Below, piece after piece: positions 1-18,018 of a DNA stretch of 64,000 nucleotides; within the stretch, counting starts at the first letter, position 1, and every line of letters begins with the position of its first letter. This DNA comes from a virus (taxonomy: Duplodnaviria; Caudoviricetes), in IMG/VR virus record IMGVR_UViG_3300028603_000022, positions 32,001-96,000 of that record. One strand, given 5' to 3'. The notes under the pieces were generated by a model. That model was not told the origin of the DNA and searched no databases. It saw only the letters and a list, made by a program, of their open reading frames with translations. The position numbers were made by a program, and so were the translations under genes.

Positions 1-1
1 G

Positions 2-169
2 ACTAAAATCATTACTAATCAAATTAACCAGCATCAATTTAAAGTAAATGAAATGGATCGCCGGTTTGAGGATTTGAATACCTATCAAAAGGAATTAAAC
101 CGTGATGTAAAGGGAATCCTTCGAGAGTTGAGAGGATTTTCTACCTCGCCCTATAGACCTACCAGATAG
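2..169 (+). CDS. 3' end of a hypothetical protein (partial, enters from window edge)
   Basis: Open frame TKIITNQ...SPYRPTR ending at TAG 167-169; not in the ORF track because no start lies in the window. Confidence 0.6.
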   Translation, partial: TKIITNQINQHQFKVNEMDRRFEDLNTYQKELNRDVKGILRELRGFSTSPYRPTR

Positions 170-3569: not shown

Positions 3570-4361
3570 ATGACTCGTTTAAATAGCAATGTTTATGAGA
3601 AGATTAACGCGCGTAGGGCTACTCGTAACAGTTTCCCTGTTGAGTTACAGAAGATTCGTATGATCGACGTGGCGTCTTCGCGAATCGTAGTTAAGATTGA
3701 TTCAGTCTTTCATGATCGTCTTAATGAGGAGACAGCTTCAGCGTCTATTTCTAGTCTAGGCGTTCGTTACTTACCTAATTCACTGCATAAAGTGTCTATG
3801 ACTGATCCTACTCTGTTTGGAGCTTTCGTAGCGCAGAATCGTGAAACTATGTCTATGGTCGATGCTAAGGAAATGGCATCAGCCGGTACTATGTCACAGG
3901 TTAGTGATACAGTATTTCAGGACACTAATGATAACATCTGGTCTGTAGTTAGTGATGGGGATACTGCCTACCTAGTTAAGCAGCAGGAAGAAGATATTGG
4001 TGCGCTTCTTAGTGCGCAGCATGCTAGGGCAATTGCTACAGCTTCACATTCTGTTAACATGTTTGAGGACTACGGGCCTGGTATTCCAGTTGTTTACTAT
4101 GATACTCGTAAGGAAGAACTTGCTTTCGGTATTGGTGTCTCTGGAACTAGTCTTTATAATCCAGAGTCTAACAAACTTGTAGAAGTAGCGTCTGACTATG
4201 TAGTCGGGGCCTGGGATGGTCGTACAGTAAACACTTCCGAAGTTGCAGCAGCCACTGTTTCAAAAGAAGAAATTCTTGCTTACTACAGCAAACTTTACGC
4301 GCATAACAAGGAATTTCTGGCAGAAATCAAAGACATTATTTATAATGGCGTCAATGTCTAA
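3570..4361 (+). CDS. Putative head/virion protein
   Basis: 263 aa; GAGG RBS; several ETAS/EVAS/EVAA sites; followed by terminator. Confidence 0.65.
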   Translation: MTRLNSNVYEKINARRATRNSFPVELQKIRMIDVASSRIVVKIDSVFHDRLNEETASASISSLGVRYLPNSLHKVSMTDPTLFGAFVAQNRETMSMVDAKEMASAGTMSQVSDTVFQDTNDNIWSVVSDGDTAYLVKQQEEDIGALLSAQHARAIATASHSVNMFEDYGPGIPVVYYDTRKEELAFGIGVSGTSLYNPESNKLVEVASDYVVGAWDGRTVNTSEVAAATVSKEEILAYYSKLYAHNKEFLAEIKDIIYNGVNV

Positions 4362-4365
4362 TAAA

Positions 4366-4397
4366 AAGAGGGTTGGTAATAACTACCAACCCCTTTC
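4366..4397 (+). terminator. Putative intrinsic terminator
   Basis: GGGTTGGTA/TACCAACCC stem, A-run before and TTT after. Confidence 0.6.
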
Positions 4398-4414
4398 CTG
4401 TCAGGAGAAGTCAT

Positions 4415-5968
4415 ATGTTTGATATAAAAAGACTTTTATCCTACGCTTATCCTGAAGCTTTAGTAGAAGTTTCCACAGCTATTAATGGATTAGACCAAAA
4501 TGTGTCTATCTCCAATATTGATAAGGATAATGCTAGGTATTTAACCTCTATTATGGAGGCGGCTGGGTACATTTATCAGGAGTCTGATAAAGAGGTAGCT
4601 AACCTTGGAGTTTATGAATTTACCAATGTAAGCCTTTATGAAGATTTAATCGAAGAAGCAACTATGGAGGATGGTAGTGAACACGAAACCGATTATATTG
4701 AGGATAATGGATCGGACTTTGCTGGGAGTGAGTTGTCTAATTCTGCTGTTACATCTATTGACGGAGATGGTAGGGCCTTCCGCGTATTAACTAACCCTGA
4801 AATGCACAAATTCGCCATGAAAGTTTATACCGGAATGCTCGGTAATAACGAAAACATGGCGAATTACGGTATTTTTGCATATGACCTAGATAATTTCTTG
4901 TCTATGCATCAGAATACTAATACATCTTTTGACGATGATGAAGAAGAAAGTGGCGAAGACGAAAGTATTTCCGTACCTGAATCCGCCTCTATTCTTACCG
5001 TAGCTGAATTAGCGGATACTCTATTTAACGCTAATGCTGATGAGTTTCTAACTGTATTCGGTAAACATATACCAGAAACTGCTAATAATAAGTTTATCGG
5101 TAAGATTATTCTAGGTATTCTAGTCAAGGTTGTAGGAGGAGCTGTAGGTAAAGCCCTTCTTAATGCTTGGGAACGTAGAAACAAGGGAGCTTTTGAGCGA
5201 ATACTGTTTAGTATAGTTTCTATTATAGTCAGAGATTGGTTCCCCGAAGAAGCTTATTCTTACAAGTCTGACGTGCAGAAGTATAAGGAATATGAATTTG
5301 ACGATGACTATAAGTACGACATTGATCTGGACGACTATACCGTAGAAAAGGCCGAAGCTTTACTAGAAAGTGAAGGCTTTGTAGAAGGTTCAGAAGTTGC
5401 TCTAAGCCCCGCTTCTATCGGTATTCTTAGACTTCTTATAGCAGTCTTTATTAAGATCATGGCTGGCGCTCTAGGTCGTATGCTTATTGATACTTGGATC
5501 AAGAGAGATAAGAAGCGATTTGAACGCACCTTAATGTACTTCATGTTAGAAGCTATCAAGTACGTTCCTTTCAAGAAGTACATGGAATCAGCTTCTGTAG
5601 AACTATACGATGATGGTCTTCTCTTAGATTACGCCAATTTTACTGATGAATCAGAAATTGAAGGTTCTGAAACGGCGCGTAAAAAGAAAGAAAAGACTGG
5701 TAGAGGGGCGTTACTTAGTGCTCTTATGCGAGCTATGTCTGGTGATACTGGAGATAGAGCAGCTAAAGCCTGGGATAATGGTGACATGGACGCCATGGTT
5801 GAAATCATGGGTAGTGTTACTGAAAAAGTCCTAGAATCTATGCCTTATGATGAAAGTAACGATGATTCTAGTGAAGAAGAGCCTGATTCATCGGAAGTTG
5901 AAACTACTGAAACTACTGAAACTACTGAAACTATTCCTGATACTACAAGTCAAATAGATGACGTGTAA
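4415..5968 (+). CDS. Acidic protein with repeated amphipathic modules (candidate processed polyprotein)
   Basis: ATG 4415 with AGGAG RBS preferred to TTG 4373; three GxxGx6Wx3[DN] repeats, each preceded by ETA/EVA. Confidence 0.8.
   Translation: MFDIKRLLSYAYPEALVEVSTAINGLDQNVSISNIDKDNARYLTSIMEAAGYIYQESDKEVANLGVYEFTNVSLYEDLIEEATMEDGSEHETDYIEDNGSDFAGSELSNSAVTSIDGDGRAFRVLTNPEMHKFAMKVYTGMLGNNENMANYGIFAYDLDNFLSMHQNTNTSFDDDEEESGEDESISVPESASILTVAELADTLFNANADEFLTVFGKHIPETANNKFIGKIILGILVKVVGGAVGKALLNAWERRNKGAFERILFSIVSIIVRDWFPEEAYSYKSDVQKYKEYEFDDDYKYDIDLDDYTVEKAEALLESEGFVEGSEVALSPASIGILRLLIAVFIKIMAGALGRMLIDTWIKRDKKRFERTLMYFMLEAIKYVPFKKYMESASVELYDDGLLLDYANFTDESEIEGSETARKKKEKTGRGALLSALMRAMSGDTGDRAAKAWDNGDMDAMVEIMGSVTEKVLESMPYDESNDDSSEEEPDSSEVETTETTETTETIPDTTSQIDDV
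5900..5932 (+). repeat. 9-bp tandem repeat GAAACTACT (ETT repeats)
   Basis: Three full copies plus a partial copy near the 3' end of the CDS. Confidence 0.85.
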
Positions 5969-5975
5969 TTAAACT

Positions 5976-6704
5976 ATGAAAAAGAATAAACAAAAATCAG
6001 GTTTTGCTGAAGGACGGTCTAAAAATAGACCGTCCATTTCTTCGCCTGATAAAAATATAAAACACGAAAAGAAAATTAACAAATTAAACAAAGCTAAAGA
6101 TGAATTAGCAGAAGTTCTAAAGGGCGCCGGATTGGTAGGCTCTGACGGAATTGAATCAGAAGTGTCTCGTTTCCAAAAAGAAATGAAGACAGTTCGTAAG
6201 ATAGTATCTAATAAGAATGATGATGACATTAATACCGAAGTATTGAACAAACTTATGCTTCGTTCTATGCTAGCCATGACTTTAGACGTACTTCCATTGG
6301 CTGAAAAAGCCTTCCGTTCGTCTATGAAAGAGAATGCAGCTTATGCTCTAATCGCCTTGATAAAAGAAGCTAAAGAAATATCTACTGAATTGAATATGAT
6401 AGGCAACGTAGAGAATCAATCCTCTTTTATAAAAGAATCTATTGTAACCCCCTTATTCAATGCTATGGCTCAGCATTTTCTTCAAGAAATGTTGTCTATG
6501 AAATCTAATATAGACACAGAATTAGCTAATAAACCTAAAACTGGACGTAGATTGAAACGTCAATTGGATGAAGTAATGAAAGCCATTGGTATGTTCATGA
6601 CTCAATCCAATGATAAGATAGCTGAAAATATACACTTATACCTATCTGGTCAAATGGCTGACATACTAGGACCGTCTACAAAGAAGCGTAAGAAAAAAGT
6701 TTGA
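5976..6704 (+). CDS. Hypothetical helical protein
   Basis: 242 aa; basic termini; abuts the HNH gene. Confidence 0.7.
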   Translation: MKKNKQKSGFAEGRSKNRPSISSPDKNIKHEKKINKLNKAKDELAEVLKGAGLVGSDGIESEVSRFQKEMKTVRKIVSNKNDDDINTEVLNKLMLRSMLAMTLDVLPLAEKAFRSSMKENAAYALIALIKEAKEISTELNMIGNVENQSSFIKESIVTPLFNAMAQHFLQEMLSMKSNIDTELANKPKTGRRLKRQLDEVMKAIGMFMTQSNDKIAENIHLYLSGQMADILGPSTKKRKKKV

Positions 6705-6705
6705 T

Positions 6706-7080
6706 ATGGCTAAAGTAGGTAGACCTAATTTCAGACCTAAGATAAAAACTGGTCGATCTTTTGCTAAATCTAGTAAGTCTAAGTTTCCCAATAAGGAATG
6801 GTACGGTGATGACTGGCAAACTCTATCTTCCTATGTTAAACAAAGGGATAACTATACGTGTAGAGCTAATCAGTTAGGATTGCCTACTTGTAATGTTAGG
6901 TATCCACCGCCTTTCTCCAATCTCTTGCATGCTCACCATATAGTACCATTACCTAAAGGCCCCAATCACCCAAAGAACATAATCACGTTATGCGTAAATT
7001 GCCATAATCGTATTCATGATCGTCAAATAGGTAAACCTATAACAAATAAACAGAAACAGGCTGCTAAACGGTTTTTATGA
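6706..7080 (+). CDS. HNH endonuclease
   Basis: RDNYTC...HAHHIVP...NIITLCVNCHNRIH. Confidence 0.9.
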   Translation: MAKVGRPNFRPKIKTGRSFAKSSKSKFPNKEWYGDDWQTLSSYVKQRDNYTCRANQLGLPTCNVRYPPPFSNLLHAHHIVPLPKGPNHPKNIITLCVNCHNRIHDRQIGKPITNKQKQAAKRFL

Positions 7081-7089
7081 GGATTCCAA

Positions 7090-7521
7090 ATGTCAACTTT
7101 ATACGATAAAATTTCCCTTCTACTTAAGTCCATTGAAAAAGCAACTCCAGAAGGTCCAGAAGAAGAAAACTTAGAATACTATCAGGACGTAATTGAGGGT
7201 GTAATCAATTATTATGAAGGTGTTCTAAATAGAGCCAACGATATAGTAGATCGTAATAAAAATAAAATATTCAGGGACGTTCTTGATTTAAACACCCGCG
7301 GGGAAATGGAACGCGCTATGCGTGCGTATACAAAATCTTACCTATTGTGTCTTCCTATATCTATTGAAGCTACATCTGAACTAGCTAAAGAGCTTATTCA
7401 AATGTGTAAAGTGTATAAAATAGATCCACCTAAAGACTGGGAAGATGTAGCTAAGTTCAATACAGATATAGGTAGAGTTAAAACTAAGCTTAAGTATATT
7501 AGAGAAACTATAGAGCTTTAG
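7090..7521 (+). CDS. Hypothetical protein
   Basis: 143 aa; GAGG RBS; leader ending IEKA. Confidence 0.7.
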   Translation: MSTLYDKISLLLKSIEKATPEGPEEENLEYYQDVIEGVINYYEGVLNRANDIVDRNKNKIFRDVLDLNTRGEMERAMRAYTKSYLLCLPISIEATSELAKELIQMCKVYKIDPPKDWEDVAKFNTDIGRVKTKLKYIRETIEL

Positions 7522-7597
7522 ATAGACAAATCGAGTTTTAGTGAATACATTACCATAACTACTTGAAACGTTTGAACTATTTTACAGCTAAACCACC

Positions 7598-7634
7598 TTG
7601 ACTTTACCTTTAATACCGTGTATATTACTAATTC
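7598..7634 (+). promoter_or_regulatory. sigma70-type promoter plus TAATTC element upstream of the SNF2 gene
   Basis: TTGACT (7598-7603), 17 nt spacer, TATATT (7621-7626), then TAATTC 7629-7634. Confidence 0.6.
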
Positions 7635-7693
7635 CTTTTGAGATAGTCTTGAAAGGCTACATACGGTTTATAAAACTTGCTAGAGGTTGACCA

Positions 7694-10600
7694 ATGGAAG
7701 CGATTAACGCTGAGCGTAGTGATTTTGAGACTGAATTTCAGCTACCTGAAACTGCTGCTCGCCGCCCCAATGTAGGAACTAAATTTACATCTCCTATGGA
7801 GATGGTTAAGAAGAATCTTTATGGTATAGTTTTGAACGCCAACGCCCTATTCCGTTTAGGAATTATGGGCTCGCTGCTCAATGACCAGATGAATGAGGAA
7901 TTTTCAACCATAGACATGTCAAATGTCATTGGTTTCGATCTAAGTCCTTATGCTCAACCTATTACAGCGGATCGTCTACGAGAAACCGCGATGGTTAAGC
8001 CTGGAAATGGTAAATCCAAGCCTATTTCCATCGAATTTACTGAATCGCTGTTCAACATCGGTGGGGAAATTGTAGAGCGTATTATGAAGCTCTATCCAGA
8101 AGGTATTGATAAGGGTATTACACTATCAGCCTTCTTCCAACATATATACAATATGAACATAAGCGGTACTGTAATGACCGCTTTAACACCTTCTCTAGAC
8201 ACTTTCAAAGACACTTACCTAGACCCGCTAGATGATTTTGTAGAGTTCAAAATCAAGATTGTTACCCCTGAATACAGCGAATCAACCCACACAGTTAATC
8301 TAGATTTTACGCTTTCTATTGAACTAGAAGCGGATATTTATCCAGAAGTAATCGATTCAGAAGAATTTTCTGCGTATCTTGTTTACCTTTGGGTTTACAA
8401 TTCCTTACGTCTTACAAAGAATCGCCTTAACAAAATCGTAGACCCTCGTAAGGTGTCTGCGCATAAAAACTCTATGCTAAAACTTGGACCTATCAGACCT
8501 AAAGTAAATAAGTCTGGTTTTGCTATCCATGGTTCCGGTAATCCTATTTTCATTCCCCCTACTAGGGATATAATGGAGCAGTTCATTAAAACTGCGAACT
8601 CATGTATTGATGAGGACGGTGTATTCCGTAGGGACTTTCTTGTAGATGAGCATAAACTAGGTGACGCAATCATCTACGTAGACTGGGTAAACGATATTCT
8701 AGCGTACACCACGTCAACAGGCATTCTTTCTACGTACAACCTAGGCGATGTTGCTCCCTTTGACCCTGTTACAGAATATAACTTCCTTTCTACCCCGCTT
8801 AAATCCAACTACCTCATGCCAATCACCACTATCCTGACAGAATCGTTTAAGGATATAGAAGGTGAGAACGCGGCGAAATTTACCACGAATGAGGAAGTAA
8901 AGCGTATTCTTCGTGATCTTCCAGCGGTTCGTATATATACTAATATAGTTAACGCTACCAACGCTTCTGACGCTATTGATGCGTGTTTGTACCATGTATG
9001 CGGCGGACAGCTAGACGAGCTAGAAGATACACCAGGCCTAATAGAACTGGTTATGGCGCTTAAGTGCTTAATCAAATATCTCAATGAACTAAGGAAGTCA
9101 GACAAGGAAGCGCTTAAGCTTCCTTCTAGTATGCGTTCACAAGGTATTATTCATCGTCTTATTGGTGTTGAGTACGTACTACGAGCTATTGATAAGTATG
9201 ACGACAAAGTTATTGAGACCTATCGTCAAGCTTGGAGAACAGAAACAGCTAAATTCAAATCTGACCCCTCTGTTAGAACCTTCGACATCCCCAATATCAA
9301 AGTTGGTAAGGGTGGGTTAACTGGTCTTCTTCCACACCAAGGCCGTATTCTATCTTCTGCGATTAAATCACCACAGCAATCTATTAAGTCGGTCAGCACT
9401 GGGGGAGGCAAGACCATCATTTCCATAGTTCAATCGATTTTTGGTATTGTGAATACCAAAACGATTCCTATGATTCTTACTAAGGCGAATCTTATTCGTG
9501 GAACTATCACAGAAATTAATCAAATTTGTAAGGGTGAAATCAATGCTATTCCGTTTACACCCATTACACTACGTCGTATGGCCAGAATTTCTGGTATTGA
9601 TACTTTTGCGAAGCTGTTAAAGTGGTATCAAACTCTACCTAAAAACACCATCTTGGTTGGTAGTTATTCATCACTGGCTTCTAGACGAAAGCTATACTCC
9701 GATCTTGATATCGTAGATGGTTTCTGTGAGTTCTCTGTACCTACTACGCAGTTTATGCTTATTATTAAGCTTCTTGGTATCAGGTTCGTATCTGGTGATG
9801 AAAGTCACATGATTAAGAACCCTGAATCAGCGCGTTCTAGAAACAGTTACGCTATCTTCTCCCACGCGGATAACCGCGATGTTATGTCAGGTACAATTGT
9901 TTCTAATACCGTTCCTGATCTTGTAGGGCAGTCTAGAGCTATATCACCCTATATCTTTGGTGACGATCCTGTAGCCTTTGCGGATAGGTACGGCCTTAGC
10001 GCTGGTTTGATTAAATCAGATGCTGACGCTAAGAAGATTAAGGATCGTCTTAAGGCTACGGTAGCCTACCATGAGGCTAACGAAGAAGACTGGGCCTACA
10101 TGCTACCAGCGATGGACGACGAGATCATGTTTGCTAATATGACTCCTCTCCAACATGAGTTCTATAACCTTCTTATGCAAGAAGCAGAACTTATGCTAAT
10201 TGAACTGGAAAAATCCAAGAAAAAGATTAAAGCAGAAGAAGATGACGACGAGGAAGATGAAGAAGACGATGATGAAGGTGACAACGCGGATGGTGATGAC
10301 GAAGAAGAAGCTCGAATTGTAGCAGCGGCAAAGGTTCATCTACAAAAAGTAGAAATGTTCCTTGTTGCGCCAGACTCCAATGAACAGTATATGCAATGGG
10401 AACGTAAGCCTTCTGGTGAAGACCTAGTTTCTCCCAAAGTTCGTGAAGCTGATAAACTTATCGAAGCCCACGTATTAAAACATCGTGATGACCTACCTAA
10501 TAATAAGGTAATCGTGTTCGGTTGGAACATAGTATCCGCTGAACACTTTATGCGTCATAGTAAGTTCGCTTCCAAGTCCCTTCATTACACAGCTGGTAAT

Positions 10601-12247
10601 GAAGAAGTGATAAGACAGTTTGAAACTAACCCAACTAATATTATTCTATGCGCAACGGAAGGCAGCGTTCGAGAAGGGCTAAACCTTCAGATGACTTCGC
10701 TCATCTGCCGTTTGCAGAGCGTTTGGTCGCCAGGGGAACATAAACAAGTACGCGCTCGTATGTATCGTCCTGATCCTCGTGGCAAGTACAACCGCGATTC
10801 AGTTCGTCATGTCTGGATCATGACTCGTCTACCTAACAACCAGCCTACACTAGACGGAGTTAAAATCGCTCGTCTAGTGTCTAAATACGTATCTAATGCT
10901 AGACTTACCTATGAAGGTAGGATGGAATGGCGTAGGGTTTCCGCTGAATTTGACGAATTGAAGATGTTGAAGATGAACCTTCAACTTATCTTCCATTCAA
11001 GAGATTACGATCTGGAACCTTATTTCCAAGCTTGGAAGACATATGTTAATTGGGAAAAAGACCTTAACAAGCAAGCTAAGCGTAGGATGGCTGAAAAGCT
11101 TGAACAGGAAAACGATGTAGACCTGTTAGACGATAAAGGTAATATTACGGACATTAACAAGTTCATTCAGCTTGCTATGTACGGTGTAGAGTCTACTTAT
11201 AAGATTCCAGGCTCTAAACGTGTCTACGTACCGTTTATTCGTAATGCGTTGCCAGCTGACCCTAATAACTATGGGTTTTCTGTTCTAGGTAATAACGATA
11301 TTCCAGTAGGGACCGTTATATACACTGAATTTGGACCGGCTGTAGTTAAAGCTTCTATGAAGAAGGCCGTGAAAGTTCAATTGTATAATGGCCGTACCGT
11401 GTCTTTGAAAAAAGGTACTGTTCACGTAGCAGCCCCTTCCAAGTACAAGGAGTTCGCTAAAGTAGTTAAAGACCCGGTTAAGTGGCGTAATGAGTCCTTC
11501 GATCCCCACGGTGTTAAGGGTCTAGCCAAGGTAGAAAAAACCAAGATTAAGGATGAAGAAGAAGTTATCGAGGCTCTAGAAGATAATCTAGAGTCCGAGG
11601 ACATGGATGAAGTTGAAATCTTCGCCGGTATGCTTAACAGTTGGCCAGCCCTTATTATCGATGAAGATATTAACGAATTGAAAAATCTAGAAGGCTGGAA
11701 TCGTATTGATCCGTTTACTTCTATCACTTTCCGTAGCTGGGCTGCGGCAGAAAAACTGATCGAACTCCTTGACAGTAAGATGCATATTTCTGATAAGGTA
11801 TATGATGCTCTTATGGAAGAAATGGAAGAAATCCGTGAAGGTAAGGCTATGAGACTTACCAAACAAATTAATCCTCAAAAGTTTAGAAACTTCTTCCTAG
11901 ATCAAAAGAAGCGTCTTGGTAGAACCAAAAATGGTAAGGTCATCGTCAATCCTTATTGGATAGTTAACGATGAAAAGGTTCTTCTAGCGTTCGACACAAA
12001 CAGTCACGATCCCAACTTTATTTCTTGGTTGAACCGCAACAGAGCTAAATTCCCCGGCGTTGTCAAGATTACTAAGAACGACGCTATGTGGATTAACATA
12101 TTCAAGTCTGTCCGTGAAGCTATGCAAGACCTCAAGAACCTTACCAAGATAAGGTCTATCGATGTTGAACAAATTAAACGTGATCTGGTAGATGTTAAGG
12201 ATGAAATTCTTAAATTGAAGCGCCCCCGTAGTCGTCCTAACATGTAA
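7694..12247 (+). CDS. Large SNF2-family (SF2) ATPase/helicase
   Basis: LLPHQ Q-motif, STGGGKT Walker A, DESH motif II, SGT motif III, GLNLQ motif V, WSP...QVRARMYR motif VI. Confidence 0.88.
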   Translation: MEAINAERSDFETEFQLPETAARRPNVGTKFTSPMEMVKKNLYGIVLNANALFRLGIMGSLLNDQMNEEFSTIDMSNVIGFDLSPYAQPITADRLRETAMVKPGNGKSKPISIEFTESLFNIGGEIVERIMKLYPEGIDKGITLSAFFQHIYNMNISGTVMTALTPSLDTFKDTYLDPLDDFVEFKIKIVTPEYSESTHTVNLDFTLSIELEADIYPEVIDSEEFSAYLVYLWVYNSLRLTKNRLNKIVDPRKVSAHKNSMLKLGPIRPKVNKSGFAIHGSGNPIFIPPTRDIMEQFIKTANSCIDEDGVFRRDFLVDEHKLGDAIIYVDWVNDILAYTTSTGILSTYNLGDVAPFDPVTEYNFLSTPLKSNYLMPITTILTESFKDIEGENAAKFTTNEEVKRILRDLPAVRIYTNIVNATNASDAIDACLYHVCGGQLDELEDTPGLIELVMALKCLIKYLNELRKSDKEALKLPSSMRSQGIIHRLIGVEYVLRAIDKYDDKVIETYRQAWRTETAKFKSDPSVRTFDIPNIKVGKGGLTGLLPHQGRILSSAIKSPQQSIKSVSTGGGKTIISIVQSIFGIVNTKTIPMILTKANLIRGTITEINQICKGEINAIPFTPITLRRMARISGIDTFAKLLKWYQTLPKNTILVGSYSSLASRRKLYSDLDIVDGFCEFSVPTTQFMLIIKLLGIRFVSGDESHMIKNPESARSRNSYAIFSHADNRDVMSGTIVSNTVPDLVGQSRAISPYIFGDDPVAFADRYGLSAGLIKSDADAKKIKDRLKATVAYHEANEEDWAYMLPAMDDEIMFANMTPLQHEFYNLLMQEAELMLIELEKSKKKIKAEEDDDEEDEEDDDEGDNADGDDEEEARIVAAAKVHLQKVEMFLVAPDSNEQYMQWERKPSGEDLVSPKVREADKLIEAHVLKHRDDLPNNKVIVFGWNIVSAEHFMRHSKFASKSLHYTAGNEEVIRQFETNPTNIILCATEGSVREGLNLQMTSLICRLQSVWSPGEHKQVRARMYRPDPRGKYNRDSVRHVWIMTRLPNNQPTLDGVKIARLVSKYVSNARLTYEGRMEWRRVSAEFDELKMLKMNLQLIFHSRDYDLEPYFQAWKTYVNWEKDLNKQAKRRMAEKLEQENDVDLLDDKGNITDINKFIQLAMYGVESTYKIPGSKRVYVPFIRNALPADPNNYGFSVLGNNDIPVGTVIYTEFGPAVVKASMKKAVKVQLYNGRTVSLKKGTVHVAAPSKYKEFAKVVKDPVKWRNESFDPHGVKGLAKVEKTKIKDEEEVIEALEDNLESEDMDEVEIFAGMLNSWPALIIDEDINELKNLEGWNRIDPFTSITFRSWAAAEKLIELLDSKMHISDKVYDALMEEMEEIREGKAMRLTKQINPQKFRNFFLDQKKRLGRTKNGKVIVNPYWIVNDEKVLLAFDTNSHDPNFISWLNRNRAKFPGVVKITKNDAMWINIFKSVREAMQDLKNLTKIRSIDVEQIKRDLVDVKDEILKLKRPRSRPNM

Positions 12248-12275
12248 TTTCTATTTTAGATATAAGAGCATTGAT

Positions 12276-14075
12276 ATGTCAAATTATAAAGATTTTGTAT
12301 CTAGACAACTTGAGAGTATGGAGGTAGCTAGTCTACCTCCTACTCAATATACTAAATTAGGAGCTTATCTTCTTGCTAAAGGATTGGTAGTTTTAGCTGG
12401 TAATGGGGAAGGTAAAACCTACGCGGAACGTAACGCCGTCATAATGAAGGATTTGTTGAATCCAAGGTTCACTAAGAAATACGCTATACCAGAGAATTTT
12501 CATAAGTTTGACCCCTCTGGACCTGCTCTTTTTGTTAAGCCTCTTAAAGAGGCTATAAAAATTATGGTGGAAGACCCTAAAGTATCCGCAGAAGAAGCTT
12601 CTCTTTTGAAATTCGCGGTCAACTTTATGGAGAACCCTTCTAAGACTCCTAACTATATAGAAAGAGCTAGAAAACACGCTGCTACTATAAGTGCTGCTTA
12701 TTATCGGAATTTTGAGAAAGTAGTTGGTAAAATTCAAGGTTCTACATCTGGTAATAAGTCAAATATCGTAGATTTACAGAGACAATTATCAGAGTTAGTA
12801 TCAGAAATTACAGGCAAGAAAGCTAAACCAGACGTTCTCAACGTACCTAATACTACAATTGTAGAAATGAGACGTTCAGGTGGGGACAACCTAGATAAGG
12901 CACGCCGATACGCTCAAATGCGTAGGGAGTTAGGAGCTTCTTATGATAAAGACCTAATAGGTTTTATCTCATCAAAGAATCCTAGTGTAGTAAAAATTCA
13001 AGACGCTTATACTTATATGGATAAGCTAGGGTATAAGATACATAAGATACCAAATGTAGCCAAAAGCATACCTCTTAAATTAGGTATGTCGCTAGGTAAA
13101 CCAAAGTTTTACACTGGTGATGACCGTCCTATAGCGCAGAATATTCCTTCTAATGCTAAAGATATCAAACTATCACCTAGATACGACCCTAAAACAGGGG
13201 CTGGAGGTTATCTAACCTATACTTCCGATGTAGCTGCAGGTATTACTAGGGTATACACAGAAGCCCATCAGAATCAATCAGCTTCTAAAATATCATCTGA
13301 CACCCAAGCTGTTACCACTAAGATGACTTCTGTGTTGTCTAGATGGAAAAAGGATTTAACATCTACTGATCCCATCAAGAAGATGGGCGCTACCGCCTCT
13401 GTCATGATTTACATGACAGCTATGCGAGTTGGAGCTAGACAGACTACAGCGGCAGCTCAATCTGGTGTAGCTACCTACGGAGCTATATCCCTTAGACCTC
13501 CTCATATAATTCTACGTAAGAATAGTATATTCCTTAAATATAAAGGAAAGGCAGCTAGTAAAACAGGACTGGAGCAGCAACATATTATTAAAGTTAATCC
13601 TGCTGATGGTCTTACTAAGCGAGTCTATCAGAATCTTGAAAAGCTTATGGCAGGGAAGAAGAAGACTGATCTTGTCTTCTCTGTCCCTAATAAGAACAAA
13701 AATAAGAAACCTGTTGTTTTAACGTATGCTGCCTATATTCAGTATCTAAAAGACTCCGGTTATCCCGCTGGACCGCATAAGATGCGTAGAGTTCGCGGTA
13801 CTAACCTAATGATCGATCTTCTAAAGAAAGAAAAGTTCAACCTTTCTGTTAAAGCTTCCGGTAATCTTTCTAGGTCGCAGAAGGAAGGTGAACAGTTTGT
13901 TATTGAAAAGATTCTAACTCCTATTGCCATCTTGTTAGGACATAAGTCCGGTACAGGAGCTACGTTGTGGCGTACTACCGTGAAAAGTTATGTCGAAGTT
14001 AAGCCTCTTATTGACTTCTTCCAGAAGCAGGGTCTTAGAGCACCGAAATGGCTTCCGAAGAAGGCGTCAGATTAA
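12276..14075 (+). CDS. DNA topoisomerase IB-like protein
   Basis: Catalytic residues in expected order: MRVG, YGAISLR, YKGK, HKMRR, LGH, VKSY. Confidence 0.8.
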   Translation: MSNYKDFVSRQLESMEVASLPPTQYTKLGAYLLAKGLVVLAGNGEGKTYAERNAVIMKDLLNPRFTKKYAIPENFHKFDPSGPALFVKPLKEAIKIMVEDPKVSAEEASLLKFAVNFMENPSKTPNYIERARKHAATISAAYYRNFEKVVGKIQGSTSGNKSNIVDLQRQLSELVSEITGKKAKPDVLNVPNTTIVEMRRSGGDNLDKARRYAQMRRELGASYDKDLIGFISSKNPSVVKIQDAYTYMDKLGYKIHKIPNVAKSIPLKLGMSLGKPKFYTGDDRPIAQNIPSNAKDIKLSPRYDPKTGAGGYLTYTSDVAAGITRVYTEAHQNQSASKISSDTQAVTTKMTSVLSRWKKDLTSTDPIKKMGATASVMIYMTAMRVGARQTTAAAQSGVATYGAISLRPPHIILRKNSIFLKYKGKAASKTGLEQQHIIKVNPADGLTKRVYQNLEKLMAGKKKTDLVFSVPNKNKNKKPVVLTYAAYIQYLKDSGYPAGPHKMRRVRGTNLMIDLLKKEKFNLSVKASGNLSRSQKEGEQFVIEKILTPIAILLGHKSGTGATLWRTTVKSYVEVKPLIDFFQKQGLRAPKWLPKKASD

Positions 14076-14124
14076 TTATATACCTAGAAGAATAGTACCA
14101 TTAATTAGAGGAACAAAACTAGTT

Positions 14125-14394
14125 ATGAACTATCTACGTTGGGTAAAAGAAACAGCCGCGAATGTAGTAGACATGAATGCTTTCAAGGCTAAAATTAAAC
14201 ATAAAAAACAGAAAGAAGTAGAGAAAGAGCTTAGAGAGTTAGGTATAACACTTACTCATTTGTCTAATACAGGTGAATATAGAGTTAATTACAAACACGG
14301 TAGGGAAGCTACCGCTTACTACACTGATGATCTACAGGACGCAGCCTTAACAGGTTTTGCGCTATCACAACATAATAACCCTTATCCATCGTAA
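14125..14394 (+). CDS. Small hypothetical protein with leader MNYLRWVKETA
   Basis: ATG 14125 with AGAGGA RBS preferred to 13990, which overlaps the topoisomerase. Confidence 0.7.
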   Translation: MNYLRWVKETAANVVDMNAFKAKIKHKKQKEVEKELRELGITLTHLSNTGEYRVNYKHGREATAYYTDDLQDAALTGFALSQHNNPYPS

Positions 14395-14403
14395 AGTAAT
14401 ACT

Positions 14404-14568
14404 ATGATAGAGATCGGGGCTAAAGTTCGTGTAAGACACATGGTATTACCACTACTTGTAGTGGATATAATATCGAATAAGTTAGTAGTTGTCGCTTGGA
14501 AAACTACTACAGGAAAGGTATATGAACTTGTAGTCTCAAAAAGGGTATTAGAGAAGATAGATGCCTAA
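14404..14568 (+). CDS. 54-aa YodC/DUF2158-like small beta protein (below ORF track cutoff)
   Basis: MIEIGAKVRVRHMVLPLLVVDIISNKLVVVAWKTTTGKVYELVVSKRVLEKIDA; fills the gap and overlaps the ligase start by 8 nt. Confidence 0.6.
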   Translation: MIEIGAKVRVRHMVLPLLVVDIISNKLVVVAWKTTTGKVYELVVSKRVLEKIDA

Positions 14569-16369
14569 AGACCTTGAAAAGATAAAGAAGTACGTATCTT
14601 GGTTGAAGAAGGCAGATGACGCCTATTTCAATACGGGAAAGCCTATAGCTTCGGATGATAAATACGATAAAGTAAAACAGTATGTGCAAGATAATGATCC
14701 TAACAACCCATATCTTAAAAAAGTAGGTCATAAACCAAAAACAGGTAAAAAGGTCAAACTACCTTATTACATGCCTTCTTTGGATAAAATCTATCCAGAT
14801 AGAGGCGCAGAAGCTTTCTTGAAATCGTCTTCGGGCGATTTTTCTGTGCTTTATAAGCTAGACGGCGTATCTGTTCTAGCTATCAATCAAAACGGTGAAA
14901 CAAAGCTTTATACTAGAGGTAATGGCTCTGTAGGGCAAGATATCACCAAACTGCTTCCTTATATCAAAGGTGTAGGTACACTAAAGAAGAAGGAAGCGGT
15001 AAGAGGGGAGTTGATGATAAAACTCTCTGATTTTAACGCTAAGTTCAGTAAAGACTTTGAGAACCCACGTAATACCGTATCAGGTGTAGCTAATTCTGAT
15101 AAAATCAAGACCAAAGTGGCTAAGTCTATAGATTTCGTAGCTCATGAATTTGTCTTCCCTGTTACTAAATGGAAAGAAGCTAGAGTTAAGCTGAAGTCCC
15201 GTGGTTTTTTAACTACTCCTACGAAACAATTTAATAATCCTACAATTATCCAGCTAGCTAAATATCTTAAAGAGCATAAGACTAAAATATATGATATAGA
15301 TGGTTTGGTTCTTATTGATAATAAGACAGGTTCTAGAATCTCTTTCAAGGTGAACGCTCCAGCAGTTGACGCCGTAGTTAAAACCGTAAATTGGCAGCTT
15401 TCAAAACACGGAATACTAAAACCTGTTATTATCCTTGAGAAACCTATTAAACTAAGTGGTGTTTCTATTACTCGTGTTACTGGTCACAACGCGCGCACTA
15501 TCCAAGACTTAGGTATAGGTAAGGGGGCTATAATCAAAGTAACTAGAGGCGGCGATGTTATTCCGCGGCTCGATGGAGTAGTCAGGAAAGCTAAAAAGGT
15601 AGAATTACCGGATAACTTCAAATGGAATAAGACCAACACAGAAGCGGTAGCTACCAACCTATCCAAGTCTGATAAATCTCACATTGAAGTAAAGAAACTT
15701 ACAGAAGCTTTCCGTATTCTCGGATTCGACGGTATTAGATCAGCTACAGCCAAGGTTCTTATAGAGAACGATTATGACTTAATAGATACACTATTAGGTG
15801 ATGAACAGGACTTCCTAGACATAGGTGTAGGTAATGCTAACTCTGCTAAGTTGTATTCTGGTATACAAAAAGCTAAGAAGAAAGCCTCACATGGTAAGTT
15901 AATGTGGGCTTCTCACATATGGCCTTCTGGGTTTACTGATACTAGGTTTGATAAAATCTTATCTATTGCTCCGTATAAGTTACTTGTACGGGTTACACCT
16001 AAAAAGTTAATTCAAAGAATAAGTAATATACATGGGTTTTCTCCGTTTACAGCTACTGAATTTGTCAAATACTTACCCGATTATAAAGAGTTTGTAGAAG
16101 ATTTAGGTTGGAAAATTAAAGATCAAGCTTTCACTACAGAGTCTTCTAAGTTAGCTGGTAAATCTTTTGTCTTTAGCGGTATTAGAGACAAGAACCTAGA
16201 AGAAGAAATAAAGAAGAATGGCGGTGTGATTTCAGGTTCTATATCTAAAACAACTACAGCCGTAATAGTGAAATCTGTTAAAGCTACATCCACCAAGATT
16301 CAAAAAGCTAAAGAACTAAATGTACCTGTTATAGGTATTAACGAAGTTAAGTCTAAATATGGAATTTAA
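14561..16369 (+). CDS. ligA: NAD+-dependent DNA ligase
   Basis: Domain Ia DDAYF...SDDKYD, YKLDG adenylation motif, TRGNG, RGE, DGLV, RGGDVIP, C-terminal BRCT. Confidence 0.93.
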   Translation: MPKDLEKIKKYVSWLKKADDAYFNTGKPIASDDKYDKVKQYVQDNDPNNPYLKKVGHKPKTGKKVKLPYYMPSLDKIYPDRGAEAFLKSSSGDFSVLYKLDGVSVLAINQNGETKLYTRGNGSVGQDITKLLPYIKGVGTLKKKEAVRGELMIKLSDFNAKFSKDFENPRNTVSGVANSDKIKTKVAKSIDFVAHEFVFPVTKWKEARVKLKSRGFLTTPTKQFNNPTIIQLAKYLKEHKTKIYDIDGLVLIDNKTGSRISFKVNAPAVDAVVKTVNWQLSKHGILKPVIILEKPIKLSGVSITRVTGHNARTIQDLGIGKGAIIKVTRGGDVIPRLDGVVRKAKKVELPDNFKWNKTNTEAVATNLSKSDKSHIEVKKLTEAFRILGFDGIRSATAKVLIENDYDLIDTLLGDEQDFLDIGVGNANSAKLYSGIQKAKKKASHGKLMWASHIWPSGFTDTRFDKILSIAPYKLLVRVTPKKLIQRISNIHGFSPFTATEFVKYLPDYKEFVEDLGWKIKDQAFTTESSKLAGKSFVFSGIRDKNLEEEIKKNGGVISGSISKTTTAVIVKSVKATSTKIQKAKELNVPVIGINEVKSKYGI

Positions 16370-16371
16370 TC

Positions 16372-16716
16372 ATGGGTTATTTCTCTAAAGTTTTAGAAGT
16401 AGCAGGTAGACCACCTAAAACAGATCTTGAAAAACATATTAACGCTATCAACGGTAGTGATCTTTTCGATCTATACTACTCCAGCAAACCTTATGGGTCT
16501 GATACTCATGTAGAAACTACTAGAGATAAAGCTAACAGGCTTATGGATTATTTGGAGAAAAAAGGTTACAAGTCCAATAGACTACCAGATTCTTATCTAG
16601 GCCGATATGAAGTTATTGAGTCTGTAGAGCTTAAAAAGCGGGGAATTAAGGGTAATATTAAAATTACCAGTGTACCCTACTACGATCATTTAGCTAAAAT
16701 TCTTATTGAAGTTTAA
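16372..16716 (+). CDS. Small hypothetical protein with leader MGYFSKVLEVA
   Basis: 114 aa ORF tightly packed between ligase and protease genes. Confidence 0.7.
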   Translation: MGYFSKVLEVAGRPPKTDLEKHINAINGSDLFDLYYSSKPYGSDTHVETTRDKANRLMDYLEKKGYKSNRLPDSYLGRYEVIESVELKKRGIKGNIKITSVPYYDHLAKILIEV

Positions 16717-16730
16717 TAAGGTAACACCGA

Positions 16731-17519
16731 ATGTCTGATCTTAAAGAGCTGATTTCCAGCATGATTAGTAGAAATACCAATGACAGCTTGAATAGAGATC
16801 GGGCAAAAGTTAGTCTGATTGAATCCGCGTCATTCGGTACTGAAACTCCTATTGACGCACATAAAACTCCAGAAATAGGTAAACATCTGGAAGTTCAATC
16901 ATGGCTACCTATGGCATCACAGGTCTACAACATATCCCCTAATATCAAGGACTACGTTGTAGTACCTGTGATTATTATGCCTAGCGACCTTCCGAACCGC
17001 AATTCAGTAAGTTTCCCCCATGAGACCTTAATAGGCTTTAATCCTATTCAGGGTCGTCTTAATTATAAGACGTGGGCTGGTAAACCCGCGTATTCTGAAC
17101 ATAACCATTTCAAGATGGAAGAAGCTAAAGGTATTGTTTTCGATACCTATATGTCTAAATTAAACCACGCTAAGGGTAACTTATTTAAAGTGACCGCACT
17201 ATGTGGATTTGATCGTACTAAGGACTATGGATTAGCTCAGGAAATCCTTACTGGTAGACGTAAATCTTATTCTATGGGTGCTTTCGTCTCTCAGTATGAA
17301 TGCTCTATCTGTGGTGATTTATCTAAACGAGGTAAACTTAATACAGAATGTGGCCACGTAATTAGAGGTAAGCCTAAATTCTACGAAACTAAATACGGTT
17401 ATCTTCCTAGTTATTTGTTAGCTCGTATTGGTATTGAAGGATTTGAAGTATCTTCCGTTACTGTTCCAGCTTGGTCTTCTGCTGTGAACTCCAATATTAT
17501 GGATTTAGCTAAGGTTTAA
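16731..17519 (+). CDS. Putative prohead protease (HK97/herpes-assemblin fold) with Zn-finger insert
   Basis: PNRN, EHNH (His), YSMG (Ser), EVSSVTVPA; CSIC...CGH insert; upstream of scaffold and capsid genes. Confidence 0.75.
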   Translation: MSDLKELISSMISRNTNDSLNRDRAKVSLIESASFGTETPIDAHKTPEIGKHLEVQSWLPMASQVYNISPNIKDYVVVPVIIMPSDLPNRNSVSFPHETLIGFNPIQGRLNYKTWAGKPAYSEHNHFKMEEAKGIVFDTYMSKLNHAKGNLFKVTALCGFDRTKDYGLAQEILTGRRKSYSMGAFVSQYECSICGDLSKRGKLNTECGHVIRGKPKFYETKYGYLPSYLLARIGIEGFEVSSVTVPAWSSAVNSNIMDLAKV

Positions 17520-17523
17520 GTTT

Positions 17524-17991: not shown

Positions 17992-18018
17992 CATAAATTT
18001 CTGGTAATACTAGCGATA

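What the first reader, a model, noticed from the sequence alone, without database searches (positions are those of the whole stretch)
4415..5968. Acidic polyprotein apparently cut into repeated amphipathic, membrane-active-looking peptides
Seen: three homologous ~45-55 aa modules share GxxGx6Wx3[DN]. They are KIILGILVKVVGGAVGKALLNAWERRNKGAFERIL, RLLIAVFIKIMAGALGRMLIDTWIKRDKKRFERTL and GALLSALMRAMSGDTGDRAAKAWDNGDMDAMVEIM. Each begins a few residues after an ETA/EVA site (5075, 5393, 5669), and D/E-rich spacers separate them. Further ESA sites and possibly two degenerate copies lie upstream. The first two modules are cationic and hydrophobic, like helical bacteriocins or antimicrobial peptides. 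Established: acidic pro-spacers neutralise such peptides in processed precursors. Inference: the prohead protease releases several peptides inside the head for membrane penetration at ejection, or as core components.
Basis: partly seen in the sequence, partly recalled or inferred. Interest (0 to 1): 0.8.

Follow-up and report, generated by a model that had tools for sequence, protein, structure and literature searches.

The report
Protease-cut phage head polyprotein, hydrophobic modules
An uncultured 174-kb contractile-tailed phage encodes an acidic head-module protein that its capsid-maturation protease probably cuts into pieces; two of the pieces are greasy, positively charged helical units that might act on membranes, but neither the cutting nor any membrane effect has been shown.

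Summary
ORF 4415-5968 (517 aa; 105 D+E, 46 K+R) contains three repeats of a ~55-aa three-helix module. M1 and M2 are clearly homologous (z=14; hhalign E=1.7e-11). M1 and M3 are moderately related. No further copies lie upstream.

Each module follows a Glu-x-Ala site and precedes an acidic tail. These sites are enriched ([LIVMPS]ExA 9 observed, 1.7 expected), conserved in relatives, and match the N-terminal leaders of 7 of 8 consecutive head-block genes, including the head-maturation protease (16731-17519).

A profile search found an unannotated family of 68 cluster representatives in phages related to RSL1, PaBG and Y3.
- Most members have only the N-terminal domain plus hydrophilic M3.
- Glu-x-Ala directly precedes M3 in about 40 of 43 long members.
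- At least 11 carry a C-terminal anti-CBASS Acb1 domain; in the 8 checked it follows another Glu-x-Ala.

The protein therefore looks like a protease-processed head-internal carrier/polyprotein. M1 and M2 are a clade-specific hydrophobic, cationic insertion. Their first helices look more transmembrane-like than melittin-like. Membrane activity, retention in the capsid and the exact scissile bond are all untested. This scan noted the same stretch twice, and similar "x-x-Ala" protease codes on other phage DNA.

The parts
4370..4392 (+). Stem-loop between the upstream 263-aa gene and this ORF
   Evidence: Terminator-like scan, 9-11 pairs; sequence read
4403..4408 (+). Shine-Dalgarno AGGAGA, 6 nt before ATG 4415
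   Evidence: Sequence read directly
4415..5968 (+). ORF of the 517-aa acidic head-module protein (P0001)
   Evidence: Six homologues at 45-69% identity; 68 family representatives
4415..4594 (+). N-terminal alpha/beta domain (aa 1-60), ending at the family-invariant E60-x-A62 (nt 4592-4600)
   Evidence: AF2 pLDDT 62-71. E60 and A62 are invariant in the 18-sequence alignment A2
4760..4909 (+). Most conserved segment (aa 116-165, two helices), shared by the whole family
   Evidence: 92% identity among close homologues. D116, A134, Y151 and D159 are invariant
4979..4987 (+). E189-S-A191 candidate protease site
   Evidence: conserved only in the closest homologues
5075..5083 (+). E221-T-A223 candidate protease site before module 1
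   Evidence: E221 and A223 are invariant in A1; present in P0010 and P0011
5084..5245 (+). Module 1 (aa 224-277): hydrophobic, cationic three-helix unit, module charge about +6
   Evidence: Kyte-Doolittle 19-residue peak 2.09
5246..5353 (+). Acidic tail of module 1 with the conserved IDLDDYT motif, ending at E311-K-A313
5393..5401 (+). E327-V-A329 candidate protease site before module 2
   Evidence: E327 and A329 are invariant in A1; an E-x-A is present there in P0010 and P0011
5402..5584 (+). Module 2 (aa 330-390): hydrophobic, cationic three-helix unit. The predicted 64-aa fragment has net charge +7
   Evidence: 72.5% identity among close homologues against 48% for the following spacer
5585..5593 (+). 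E391-S-A393 candidate protease site after module 2
   Evidence: E391, A393 and S394 are invariant in A1; ENA and EKA in P0010 and P0011
5594..5668 (+). Acidic spacer (charge about -9)
5669..5677 (+). E419-T-A421 candidate protease site directly before the basic stretch of module 3
   Evidence: E-x-A occupies this position in about 40 of 43 long family members
5678..5848 (+). Module 3 (aa 422-478): ancestral, hydrophilic three-helix domain with a poly-Lys/Arg N-terminus
   Evidence: AF2 with a 55-sequence alignment gives pLDDT 85.6. It is the only module present in most of the family
5849..5968 (+). Acidic, Thr/Glu-rich C-terminal tail and stop codon
16731..17519 (+). Head-maturation protease (262 aa), the presumed processing enzyme, with its own leader ending in IESA
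   Evidence: phrog_18299 E=8.6e-68. Homologues are annotated as protease in RSL1, PaBG, Y3 and Dickeya phages

Best explanation
P0001 is a component of the prohead interior, belonging to an uncharacterised family found in large myoviruses related to RSL1, PaBG, Y3 and Rhizobium phage RHph_N28_1. It is built as a polyprotein.

Layout: an N-terminal targeting or assembly part (aa 1-221), then three units. Each unit is a Glu-x-Ala site, a ~55-aa three-helix module and an acidic tail.

Inferred steps:
1. During head maturation the phage's own protease (16731-17519) cuts at the conserved Glu-x-Ala sites at E60, E221, E311, E327, E391 and E419, and possibly at E189 and E198. The cut is probably after the Ala.
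2. The acidic pieces are lost or degraded.
3. Module-bearing pieces are freed. M3 (basic N-terminus, soluble) is the ancestral unit.
4. M1 and M2 are clade-specific duplicates in which surface residues have become bulky hydrophobic and basic. Once freed from their neutralising acidic tails, the M2 piece (64 aa, +7) and perhaps M1 stay with the DNA in the capsid. They leave through the tail at infection and act on the host inner membrane.

Graded confidence:
- Head-internal protein processed at Glu-x-Ala: about 0.65.
- M1 and M2 are cargo rather than assembly parts: about 0.4.
- Their target is the membrane: about 0.25-0.3.
For: Context:
- The gene lies in a co-oriented head block: portal, Acb1, connector-like 371-aa protein, 263-aa protein, P0001..., protease, 476-aa protein, 236-aa virion protein, major capsid protein.
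- The same gene order is found in a 67%-identical relative and in Rhizobium phage RHph_N28_1. There the positional counterpart, EVB87_143 (325 aa), has one module.

The Glu-x-Ala motif:
- [LIVMPS]ExA occurs 9 times against 1.66 expected (p<5e-5). Its density is 17 per 1000 residues against about 2 per 1000 elsewhere.
- The same motif lies within the first 35 residues of 7 of 8 consecutive head-block genes (binomial 2e-7, a post hoc run).
- E60 and A62 are invariant across an 18-sequence alignment with 27% mean column identity.
- ExA sits immediately before M3 in about 40 of 43 long homologues.

Carrier-cargo logic:
- At least 11 family representatives carry a C-terminal Acb1 domain, PF23474, E down to 4e-31.
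- All 8 examined have an ExA between M3 and Acb1.
- This phage's stand-alone Acb1 starts with the leader MLELA.

The modules:
- Their homology is supported.
- M3 folds confidently as a three-helix unit.
- M1 and M2 occur only in P0001-6, P0010 and P0011. They are better conserved than the spacers.
- Helix 1 shows Kyte-Doolittle peaks of 2.09 and 1.99 and Eisenberg <H> of 0.6-0.67, with a narrow Gly/Lys polar stripe. The M2 fragment has charge +7.

Precedent: multi-site cleavage of head and ejection proteins by a prohead protease is documented for SPN3US (PMC10052503).
Against: - There are no proteomic, structural or functional data for this phage or any family member. The PaBG virion study identified only 14 abundant proteins and does not mention gp159.
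- The scissile bond is unknown. Known relatives of this type of enzyme (T4, phiKZ, SPN3US) cut after Glu.
- The major capsid protein has no ExA in its N-terminus.
- The protease could not be linked to T4 gp21 by profile comparison (E=0.32).
- The M1 fragment is net acidic unless there are further cuts.
- The full-length AlphaFold model is poor (pLDDT 40). M1 and M2 could therefore pack into a soluble bundle in the intact protein.
- Most family members manage with no hydrophobic modules, so nothing forces a role in membrane penetration.
- A contractile-tailed phage has no known need for capsid-borne pore formers.
Confidence: 0.4

Rival explanations
1. The protein is a scaffold-like prohead core protein that is used only during assembly. 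The hydrophobic M1 and M2 helices drive self-association of the core, or bind the inner shell or portal. The protease then chops the protein at many Glu-x-Ala sites and all pieces are expelled before or during DNA packaging, as with T4 gp22. None of the pieces has a function of its own.
For: - The protein is strongly acidic and helical, carries many motif copies and lies in the head block.
- M1 and M2 derive from M3, whose family-wide conservation suggests an assembly or targeting role.
- The neighbouring 476-aa protein shows the same motif density, 7 copies.
- Propeptides of giant-phage head proteins are cut into several pieces and mostly cleared (PMC10052503).
Against: - M1 and M2 are an add-on restricted to one small clade, while the conserved assembly parts are elsewhere.
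- The same family repeatedly carries an enzyme, Acb1, that can only act in the next host.
- Each cationic module is charge-matched by its own acidic tail and bracketed by sites. That looks like release rather than mere disposal.
Confidence: 0.3
2. M1 and M2 are a cleavable membrane tether. They hold the nascent prohead or initiation complex at the cytoplasmic face of the inner membrane, and protease cuts at the flanking Glu-x-Ala sites release the prohead.
For: - Helix 1 of M1 and M2 reaches transmembrane-like hydrophobicity and is followed by a strongly basic loop.
- T4 proheads assemble on the inner membrane. [quoted passage not shown]
Against: - The segments contain 2-3 Lys/Arg each and have borderline insertion energy: +1.2 and +3.4 kcal/mol by a scale recalled from memory.
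- True insertion would require moving a 220-aa acidic domain or an acidic spacer across the membrane.
- Most relatives lack the modules.
Confidence: 0.12
3. The cationic fragments serve mainly as DNA counter-ions or condensing peptides inside the capsid, like basic internal proteins, and have no membrane role.
For: - The M2 fragment has charge +7, and M3 starts with a poly-Lys/Arg stretch.
- The phage also encodes an AT-hook, H1-like protein with a cleavable-looking leader in the same block.
Against: DNA-binding peptides do not need 25-residue hydrophobic helices. The M1 and M3 fragments, with their tails, are net acidic.
Confidence: 0.08
4. The protein is not processed at all. Glu-x-Ala is a structural or compositional feature, and the protein acts intact, in the virion or elsewhere.
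For: No direct cleavage data exist. The motif is short, and Glu and Ala are common in helical acidic proteins.
Against: - Composition-preserving shuffles give 1.66 copies against 9 observed.
- The motif shows a positional bias to N-terminal leaders of head-block genes.
- It is conserved at domain boundaries across about 27% mean column identity.
Confidence: 0.08

Closest known systems
Phage T4 prohead core and internal proteins processed by gp21: IPI-III and Alt with the capsid-targeting sequence; gp22, gp67 and gp68 cut into small 'internal peptides' (own knowledge; review PMC9026906 listed)
   Same: - Encoded among head genes.
- A short motif is shared by N-terminal leaders and internal sites.
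- Acidic helical precursor with many predicted cuts.
- Some products are expected to stay in the head and be injected.
   Different: - No sequence relationship: Pfam, PHROGs and PDB give nothing.
- The motif is Glu-x-Ala rather than (L/I)-x-Glu.
- The protease is not detectably related to gp21 by hhalign.
- T4 has no repeated hydrophobic, cationic modules.
Ejection (E) and inner-body proteins of giant phages phiKZ, 201phi2-1 and SPN3US, cut at several (S/A/G)-x-Glu or A-x-Glu sites by gp175 or gp245 (PMC10052503, PMC5694885)
   Same: - Large myovirus.
- Many head-internal proteins with long propeptides cut at multiple sites.
- Enzymes are packaged for delivery.
   Different: - A different phage lineage (major capsid protein and protease related to RSL1, PaBG, Y3 and Rhizobium phages).
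- A different motif.
- Here the released units are small three-helix modules, two of them hydrophobic.
Uncharacterised M3-domain proteins of cultured phages: PaBG gp159 (147 aa), Erwinia phage Y3_220 (218 aa), Rhizobium phage RHph_N28_1 EVB87_143 (325 aa), and Dickeya JA29 and Erwinia Yoloswag proteins
   Same: - True homologues of module 3: profile hits E=1e-8 to 7e-5 and Foldseek BFVD top hits with TM 0.65-0.68.
- The M3 match lies next to the connector-like gene (Rhizobium phage) or next to a similarly sized gene whose homology to it was not tested (Y3, PaBG).
- A short leader or long propeptide ends directly before the basic stretch.
   Different: - They have a single hydrophilic module and no M1 or M2.
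- In Y3-type and stand-alone forms the residues before the basic stretch are I/T-S-L, and in PaBG A-L-A, rather than Glu-x-Ala.
Podovirus ejection proteins (T7 gp14/15/16; P22 gp7, gp16, gp20) that leave the capsid and build a trans-envelope channel (PMC8954989, listed; own knowledge)
   Same: Works-like candidate: capsid-stored, partly hydrophobic proteins that would act on the host envelope at DNA entry.
   Different: - No homology.
- Those are full-size proteins of short-tailed phages, not protease-released 64-106-aa units of a contractile-tailed phage.
Membrane-lytic peptides of non-enveloped eukaryotic viruses made by maturation cleavage: adenovirus pVI cut by the adenoviral protease, nodavirus gamma peptide, picornavirus VP4 (own knowledge, not checked here)
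   Same: Concept only: a hydrophobic or amphipathic peptide kept harmless within a precursor, freed by maturation cleavage, stored inside the capsid and released at entry.
   Different: No sequence or structural link, a different host domain, and no evidence here for lytic activity.

Membership tests
Prohead-protease-processed internal head proteins (T4 IP/Alt and phiKZ/SPN3US E-protein type) | Gene lies in the head-morphogenesis module of a tailed phage that encodes a prohead protease | tested here: met
   Portal, connector-like protein, protease (phrog_18299, E=8.6e-68) and major capsid protein (phrog_2522, E=6.7e-61) are on the same strand around it
Prohead-protease-processed internal head proteins (T4 IP/Alt and phiKZ/SPN3US E-protein type) | Carries the phage's protease recognition motif, shared with other head proteins and with the protease's own propeptide | tested here: met
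   [LIVMPS]ExA 9 observed against 1.66 expected. The same motif is in the leaders of 7 of 8 consecutive head-block genes, including the protease. That the motif is the protease's recognition site is itself inferred, not measured
Prohead-protease-processed internal head proteins (T4 IP/Alt and phiKZ/SPN3US E-protein type) | Cleavage products, or the protein itself, demonstrated in proheads or virions | not testable with these tools
   Uncultured phage. The only relevant proteome read (PaBG, 14 proteins) does not mention the homologue
Prohead-protease-processed internal head proteins (T4 IP/Alt and phiKZ/SPN3US E-protein type) | Sequence homology to T4 or phiKZ-group internal or core proteins | tested here: not met
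   No Pfam, PHROG or PDB hit for P0001 or its profile; no tblastn hit in 50,697 phage records
Linear cationic amphipathic membrane-active peptides (melittin- or magainin-like antimicrobial peptides, leaderless helical bacteriocins) | Net positive charge of the released peptide | tested here: inconclusive
   M2 fragment +7. M1 fragment -3 or -2 with its tail. M3 fragment -15
Linear cationic amphipathic membrane-active peptides (melittin- or magainin-like antimicrobial peptides, leaderless helical bacteriocins) | Helix with a high hydrophobic moment at moderate hydrophobicity (surface-seeking) | tested here: inconclusive
   Helix 1: <H> 0.6-0.67, muH 0.22-0.33 (transmembrane-like). Helix 3: muH 0.5-0.58
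Linear cationic amphipathic membrane-active peptides (melittin- or magainin-like antimicrobial peptides, leaderless helical bacteriocins) | Short single-helix peptide (about 12-50 aa), or membership of a described peptide family | tested here: not met
   Predicted fragments are 64-106 aa three-helix units. No family hit
Linear cationic amphipathic membrane-active peptides (melittin- or magainin-like antimicrobial peptides, leaderless helical bacteriocins) | Demonstrated membrane permeabilisation | not testable with these tools
   Needs liposome or cell assays
M3-domain head-protein family (unnamed; PaBG gp159, Y3_220, RHph_N28_1 EVB87_143, phrog_31583 in part) | Basic stretch followed by the conserved motif R-S-x-x-L-S-A-L-M-K-x-x-S-G-x-x-G...A-W-D-x-G-D, forming a three-helix unit | tested here: met
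   R430, L434, M438, S442, G446 and D457 are invariant. 68 hits. AF2 pLDDT 85.6. BFVD hits to the cultured-phage members
M3-domain head-protein family (unnamed; PaBG gp159, Y3_220, RHph_N28_1 EVB87_143, phrog_31583 in part) | N-terminal domain with E-x-A near residue 60 and the conserved central helical segment | tested here: met
   Alignment A2: E60, A62, D116, A134, Y151 and D159 are invariant

The most novel reading that the evidence does not exclude
A contractile-tailed phage stores membrane-active peptides inside its capsid. They are made from an acidic, self-neutralising polyprotein by the head-maturation protease and fired through the tail to open or depolarise the inner membrane for DNA entry, or to disarm membrane-bound defences. 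This would be a bacterial-virus counterpart of adenovirus pVI or the nodavirus gamma peptide. The same carrier family would also deliver pre-packaged Acb1 anti-CBASS enzyme in related phages.
Probability: 0.2. Interest if true: 0.85.

Novelty: new variant of a known kind. Interest (0 to 1): 0.6.

Why it matters
If the reading holds, it has four consequences.
1. It defines a widespread, unannotated head-protein family in large environmental myoviruses and in cultured relatives (PaBG, Y3, Dickeya and Rhizobium phages).
2. It points to a non-canonical protease code, Glu-x-Ala, probably cut after Ala. That code would let capsid cargo be predicted from sequence.
3. It shows that the family is used as a carrier for cargo, repeatedly for the anti-CBASS nuclease Acb1. 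This would mean some phages inject a ready-made counter-defence enzyme.
4. It offers a concrete candidate for how DNA crosses the inner membrane in myoviruses, which is still an open question.

All four points can be tested with routine virion mass spectrometry and peptide biophysics.

Tried and rejected
Searches on P0001 that found nothing useful:
- Pfam, PHROGs and PADLOC: nothing apart from a noise-level JetA hit, E=0.009.
- tblastn against 50,697 phage records: no hit.
- PDB sequence profile search: no hit.
- ESM Atlas, whole protein and aa 222-391: no feature hits; structural rows all TM<0.5.

Structure work:
- Full-length AlphaFold: pLDDT 40, so unusable for deciding whether the modules pack together.
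- M3 model against PDB: Foldseek best E=1.5; VIA-align best Z=5.8. Both are generic helical background.

Other tests:
- Upstream degenerate module copies: rejected.
- TTG 4373 as the start codon: rejected, because it lies inside a hairpin and there is no SD there.
- The 263-aa (3570-4361) and 236-aa (19669-20379) neighbours as the protease: rejected in favour of 16731-17519.
- Linking that protease to T4 gp21: hhalign E=0.32, not significant. Only an NRN..[FY]P / ..H stretch aligns.
- No profile hit to the family in RSL1 or Vibrio phage GR11A.

Tools and corrections:
- One look-up of earlier findings failed on a word limit.
- The correct count is 7 of 8.
Full report
WHAT IS THERE

The window is bases 32001-96000 of a 173,848-bp IMG/VR virus record that is about 96% complete. 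The target is a single ORF at 4415-5968 on the + strand. It has a strong Shine-Dalgarno sequence (AGGAGA, 4403-4408). A stem-loop at 4370-4392 separates it from the upstream gene. The 517-aa product (P0001) has 105 Asp+Glu and 46 Lys+Arg.

THE REPEATS

M1 (aa 222-283) and M2 (328-391) are unambiguously homologous: local score 85 against 22.5 +/- 4.4 for shuffles (z=14), and profile-profile E=1.7e-11. M1 and M3 (420-480) are related at z=6.2 and E=4.6e-4. M2 and M3 match only weakly (z=2.4) but in the same register. Nothing in residues 1-221 resembles a module, so the suggested extra degenerate copies are not supported.

AlphaFold on the whole protein is poor (pLDDT 40). It still gives the same helix-kink-helix-loop-helix pattern for each module, and a moderately confident alpha/beta domain at residues 1-72. 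With a 55-sequence alignment, M3 alone folds confidently (pLDDT 85.6; 96-98 in the core) as a compact three-helix unit. That unit has no informative match in the PDB. In BFVD it matches only uncharacterised proteins of related phages.

PHYSICAL CHARACTER OF THE MODULES

Helix 1 of M1 and M2 has Kyte-Doolittle 19-residue peaks of 2.09 and 1.99. Its Eisenberg mean hydrophobicity is 0.6-0.67, with a modest moment of 0.22-0.33. This places it in the transmembrane-like region, not the surface-seeking, melittin-like region. Helix 3 is the truly amphipathic one (moment 0.5-0.58).

Read directly from the sequence, one face of helix 1 is a narrow stripe of alternating small and basic residues at i, i+4, i+8, i+12: G-K-G-K in M1, A-K-G-R in M2 and S-R-G-D in M3. 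The rest of the M1 and M2 helices is Ile/Leu/Val. Compared with M3, positions that are Ala, Asp, Thr or Arg in M3 are Ile, Val, Leu or Lys in M1 and M2. I infer that M1 and M2 would expose a large hydrophobic surface if they kept the M3 fold.

With cuts at the conserved sites, the predicted pieces and their net charges are:
- 1-189: -31
- 190-221: -4
- 222-311, M1 plus its tail: -3
- 312-327: -4
- 328-391, M2: +7
- 392-419: -9
- 420-517, M3 plus its tail: -15

Only M2 would be released as a cationic peptide, unless further cuts occur.

THE GLU-X-ALA SIGNATURE

P0001 has 11 E-x-A against 4.8 expected from its own composition (p=0.004). It has 9 [LIVMPS]-E-x-A against 1.66 expected (p<5e-5). That is 17 per 1000 residues, against about 2 per 1000 in the rest of the genome.

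The head-maturation protease is at 16731-17519 (phrog_18299, E=8.6e-68). Homologues in RSL1, PaBG, Y3 and the Dickeya phages are annotated in the same way.

The same signature lies in the first 35 residues of 7 of 8 consecutive head-block genes: the 143-aa protein, SNF2 helicase, topoisomerase IB, the 114-aa protein, the protease itself, the 155-aa protein and the 476-aa protein. Only the ligase lacks it. It is also found in the Acb1-like gene and in a 91-aa gene. Given the background rate of 13 in 156, the binomial probability is 2e-7 for this admittedly post hoc run.

A small logo from 17 sites gives Val, Ser, Thr, Lys or Leu at x, and Ser most often after the Ala.

Within P0001, the pairs E221/A223, E327/A329, E391/A393 and E419/A421 are invariant in the five close homologues. 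They are also present in P0010 and P0011 at 39-40% identity.

THE FAMILY

A profile search of 1.84 billion cluster representatives found 68 proteins. None has a name in any source.
- Most are 270-380 aa. They match only the N-terminal half and M3. In other words, one hydrophilic module is the ancestral state.
- M1 and M2 occur only in P0001-6, P0010 and P0011.
- E60 and A62 are invariant in an 18-sequence alignment with 27% mean column identity.
- E-x-A directly precedes the Lys/Arg-rich start of M3 in about 40 of 43 long members.
- Short stand-alone M3 proteins (64-98 aa) begin with a 7-9-residue leader ending I-S-L at the equivalent position.
- Erwinia phage Y3_220 has both such a leader and T-S-L before its M3. 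PaBG gp159 has a 16-residue leader ending A-L-A.

The only element common to these boundaries is a small or aliphatic residue right before the basic stretch. From this I infer, weakly, that the cut is after Ala, giving a basic N-terminus, and not after Glu as in T4, phiKZ and SPN3US (PMC10052503).

The positional counterpart in Rhizobium phage RHph_N28_1 (EVB87_143, 325 aa) has one module. Its neighbours also carry E-x-A leaders.

CARGO LOGIC

At least 11 family representatives of 445-530 aa carry a C-terminal Acb1 anti-CBASS domain (PF23474, E from 3.5e-16 to 3.8e-31). In all eight I inspected, an E-x-A lies in the short linker between M3 and Acb1. This phage has a separate 150-aa Acb1-like gene (PF23474, E=4.4e-16) that begins MLELA.

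An enzyme that degrades host immune signals can only be useful in the next cell. Its recurrent attachment behind a protease site argues that this family is carried in the capsid interior, and that units separated by E-x-A are released as independent products. By the same logic, M1 and M2 look like cargo rather than core assembly parts. They are clade-specific, bracketed by sites, charge-neutralised in the precursor, and better conserved than the spacers (M2 72.5% against 48%). This is inference.

MECHANISM AND RIVALS

Best-supported chain:
1. The precursor is incorporated into the prohead through its conserved N-terminal and central parts. Synteny and family conservation are shown; the incorporation itself is inferred.
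2. The 262-aa protease cuts at Glu-x-Ala. This is inferred from motif statistics, leader bias and conservation.
3. The acidic pieces leave.
4. The M2, M1 and M3 pieces stay, and M2 and M1 act on the host inner membrane at ejection. This step is speculative and rests only on physico-chemistry.

Rivals:
- A T4 gp22-like, assembly-only core protein whose hydrophobic helices drive self-association (0.3).
- A cleavable membrane tether for the nascent prohead (0.12).
- DNA counter-ion peptides (0.08).
- No processing at all (0.08).

The data exclude none of the first three. The full-length model is too poor to tell whether M1 and M2 pack into a soluble bundle.

COMPARISON WITH WHAT IS KNOWN

The arrangement works like the T4 internal and core proteins and like the phiKZ and SPN3US E proteins. 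These also have leaders plus internal protease sites and multi-site cleavage, and they package enzymes. P0001 is not a sequence member of any of those families. Its protease could not be tied to T4 gp21.

It is a member of an unnamed M3-domain family with cultured representatives (PaBG gp159, Y3_220, EVB87_143). It fails the tests for short amphipathic antimicrobial peptides on size and family, and is inconclusive on charge and hydrophobic moment. The conceptual parallel with maturation-released lytic peptides of adenovirus, nodaviruses and picornaviruses comes from my own knowledge and was not tested.

EARLIER NOTES OF THIS SCAN

The same stretch was noted twice by first readers. Other notes on this genome flagged the E-x-A leaders on SNF2 and topoisomerase IB and the Acb1 leader, and I re-checked both. 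Follow-ups on other ~177-kb phages proposed Lys-x-Ala protease codes cut after Ala. That is compatible with the code proposed here, but it is not independent evidence.

VERDICT

The 'polyprotein processed by the prohead protease' part is well supported by comparative sequence evidence. The 'membrane-active peptides' part remains a reasonable but untested minority reading. The finding is a new variant of a known kind, and its interest is moderate to high.

Noticed in passing
window 7090-19640 (+), and genome 30067-30519 (1.5 kb before the window start): Seven of eight consecutive head-block genes start with a short leader ending in [hydrophobic]-E-x-A. They are a 143-aa protein, the 1517-aa SNF2 helicase, topoisomerase IB, a 114-aa protein, the protease, a 155-aa protein and a 476-aa protein. 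The Acb1-like gene has one too. This suggests a large set of capsid-packaged enzymes.
   Followed up: partly
relatives P0030, P0034, P0036, P0038, P0039, P0041, P0043, P0044, P0048, P0051, P0053 (metagenomic proteins): At least 11 cluster representatives fuse this head-protein family to a C-terminal Acb1 anti-CBASS domain. In the 8 checked, an E-x-A site lies in the linker. This hints that Acb1 is delivered pre-made from the capsid in some phages.
   Followed up: partly
window 18210-19640 (+): The 476-aa protein directly after the protease gene cluster and before the 236-aa virion protein and the major capsid protein has 7 [LIVMPS]ExA motifs (14.7 per 1000 residues). It is probably the main scaffold or core protein. 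Databases label its relatives 'ATPase' or 'Nop14-like', which looks doubtful.
   Followed up: no
window 16731-17519 (+): The head-protease family (this phage, RSL1, PaBG, Y3, GR11A) has invariant C191, C194, C207 and H209, a possible zinc site. It also has invariant H124 and S181, which are candidate catalytic residues. It has no Pfam model, and hhalign to T4 gp21 is not significant.
   Followed up: partly
L014:4789-5445 (Erwinia phage Y3_220), L015:5210-5653 (PaBG gp159), stand-alone proteins P0060-P0074: Single-module M3 proteins in other lineages begin with leaders such as M-R-V-[LM]-I-S-L or ...V-A-L-A, directly before the basic stretch. This suggests lineage-specific protease codes that co-vary with the boundary of this domain.
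   Followed up: partly
window 1-169 and the 244 nt before it (genome 31756-32169), and L002:1266-1691: A 137-141-aa head-block protein has a hydrophobic segment (LTVVFGMLWVVGKPF) and weak coiled-coil or DUF948-like hits. The L002 copy carries a SIEVA leader. It may be another membrane-related head-module protein.
   Followed up: no
window 6706-7080 (+): An HNH endonuclease gene sits inside the head module, at the same position as in Rhizobium phage RHph_N28_1 (EVB87_141). It is therefore a conserved resident and not a recent homing insertion.
   Followed up: no
window 5976-6704 (+): The 242-aa protein downstream of P0001 has very basic N- and C-termini, a helical middle and no ExA motif. It is conserved in the Rhizobium phage (EVB87_142). 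It may be a DNA-binding internal protein or scaffold partner.
   Followed up: no
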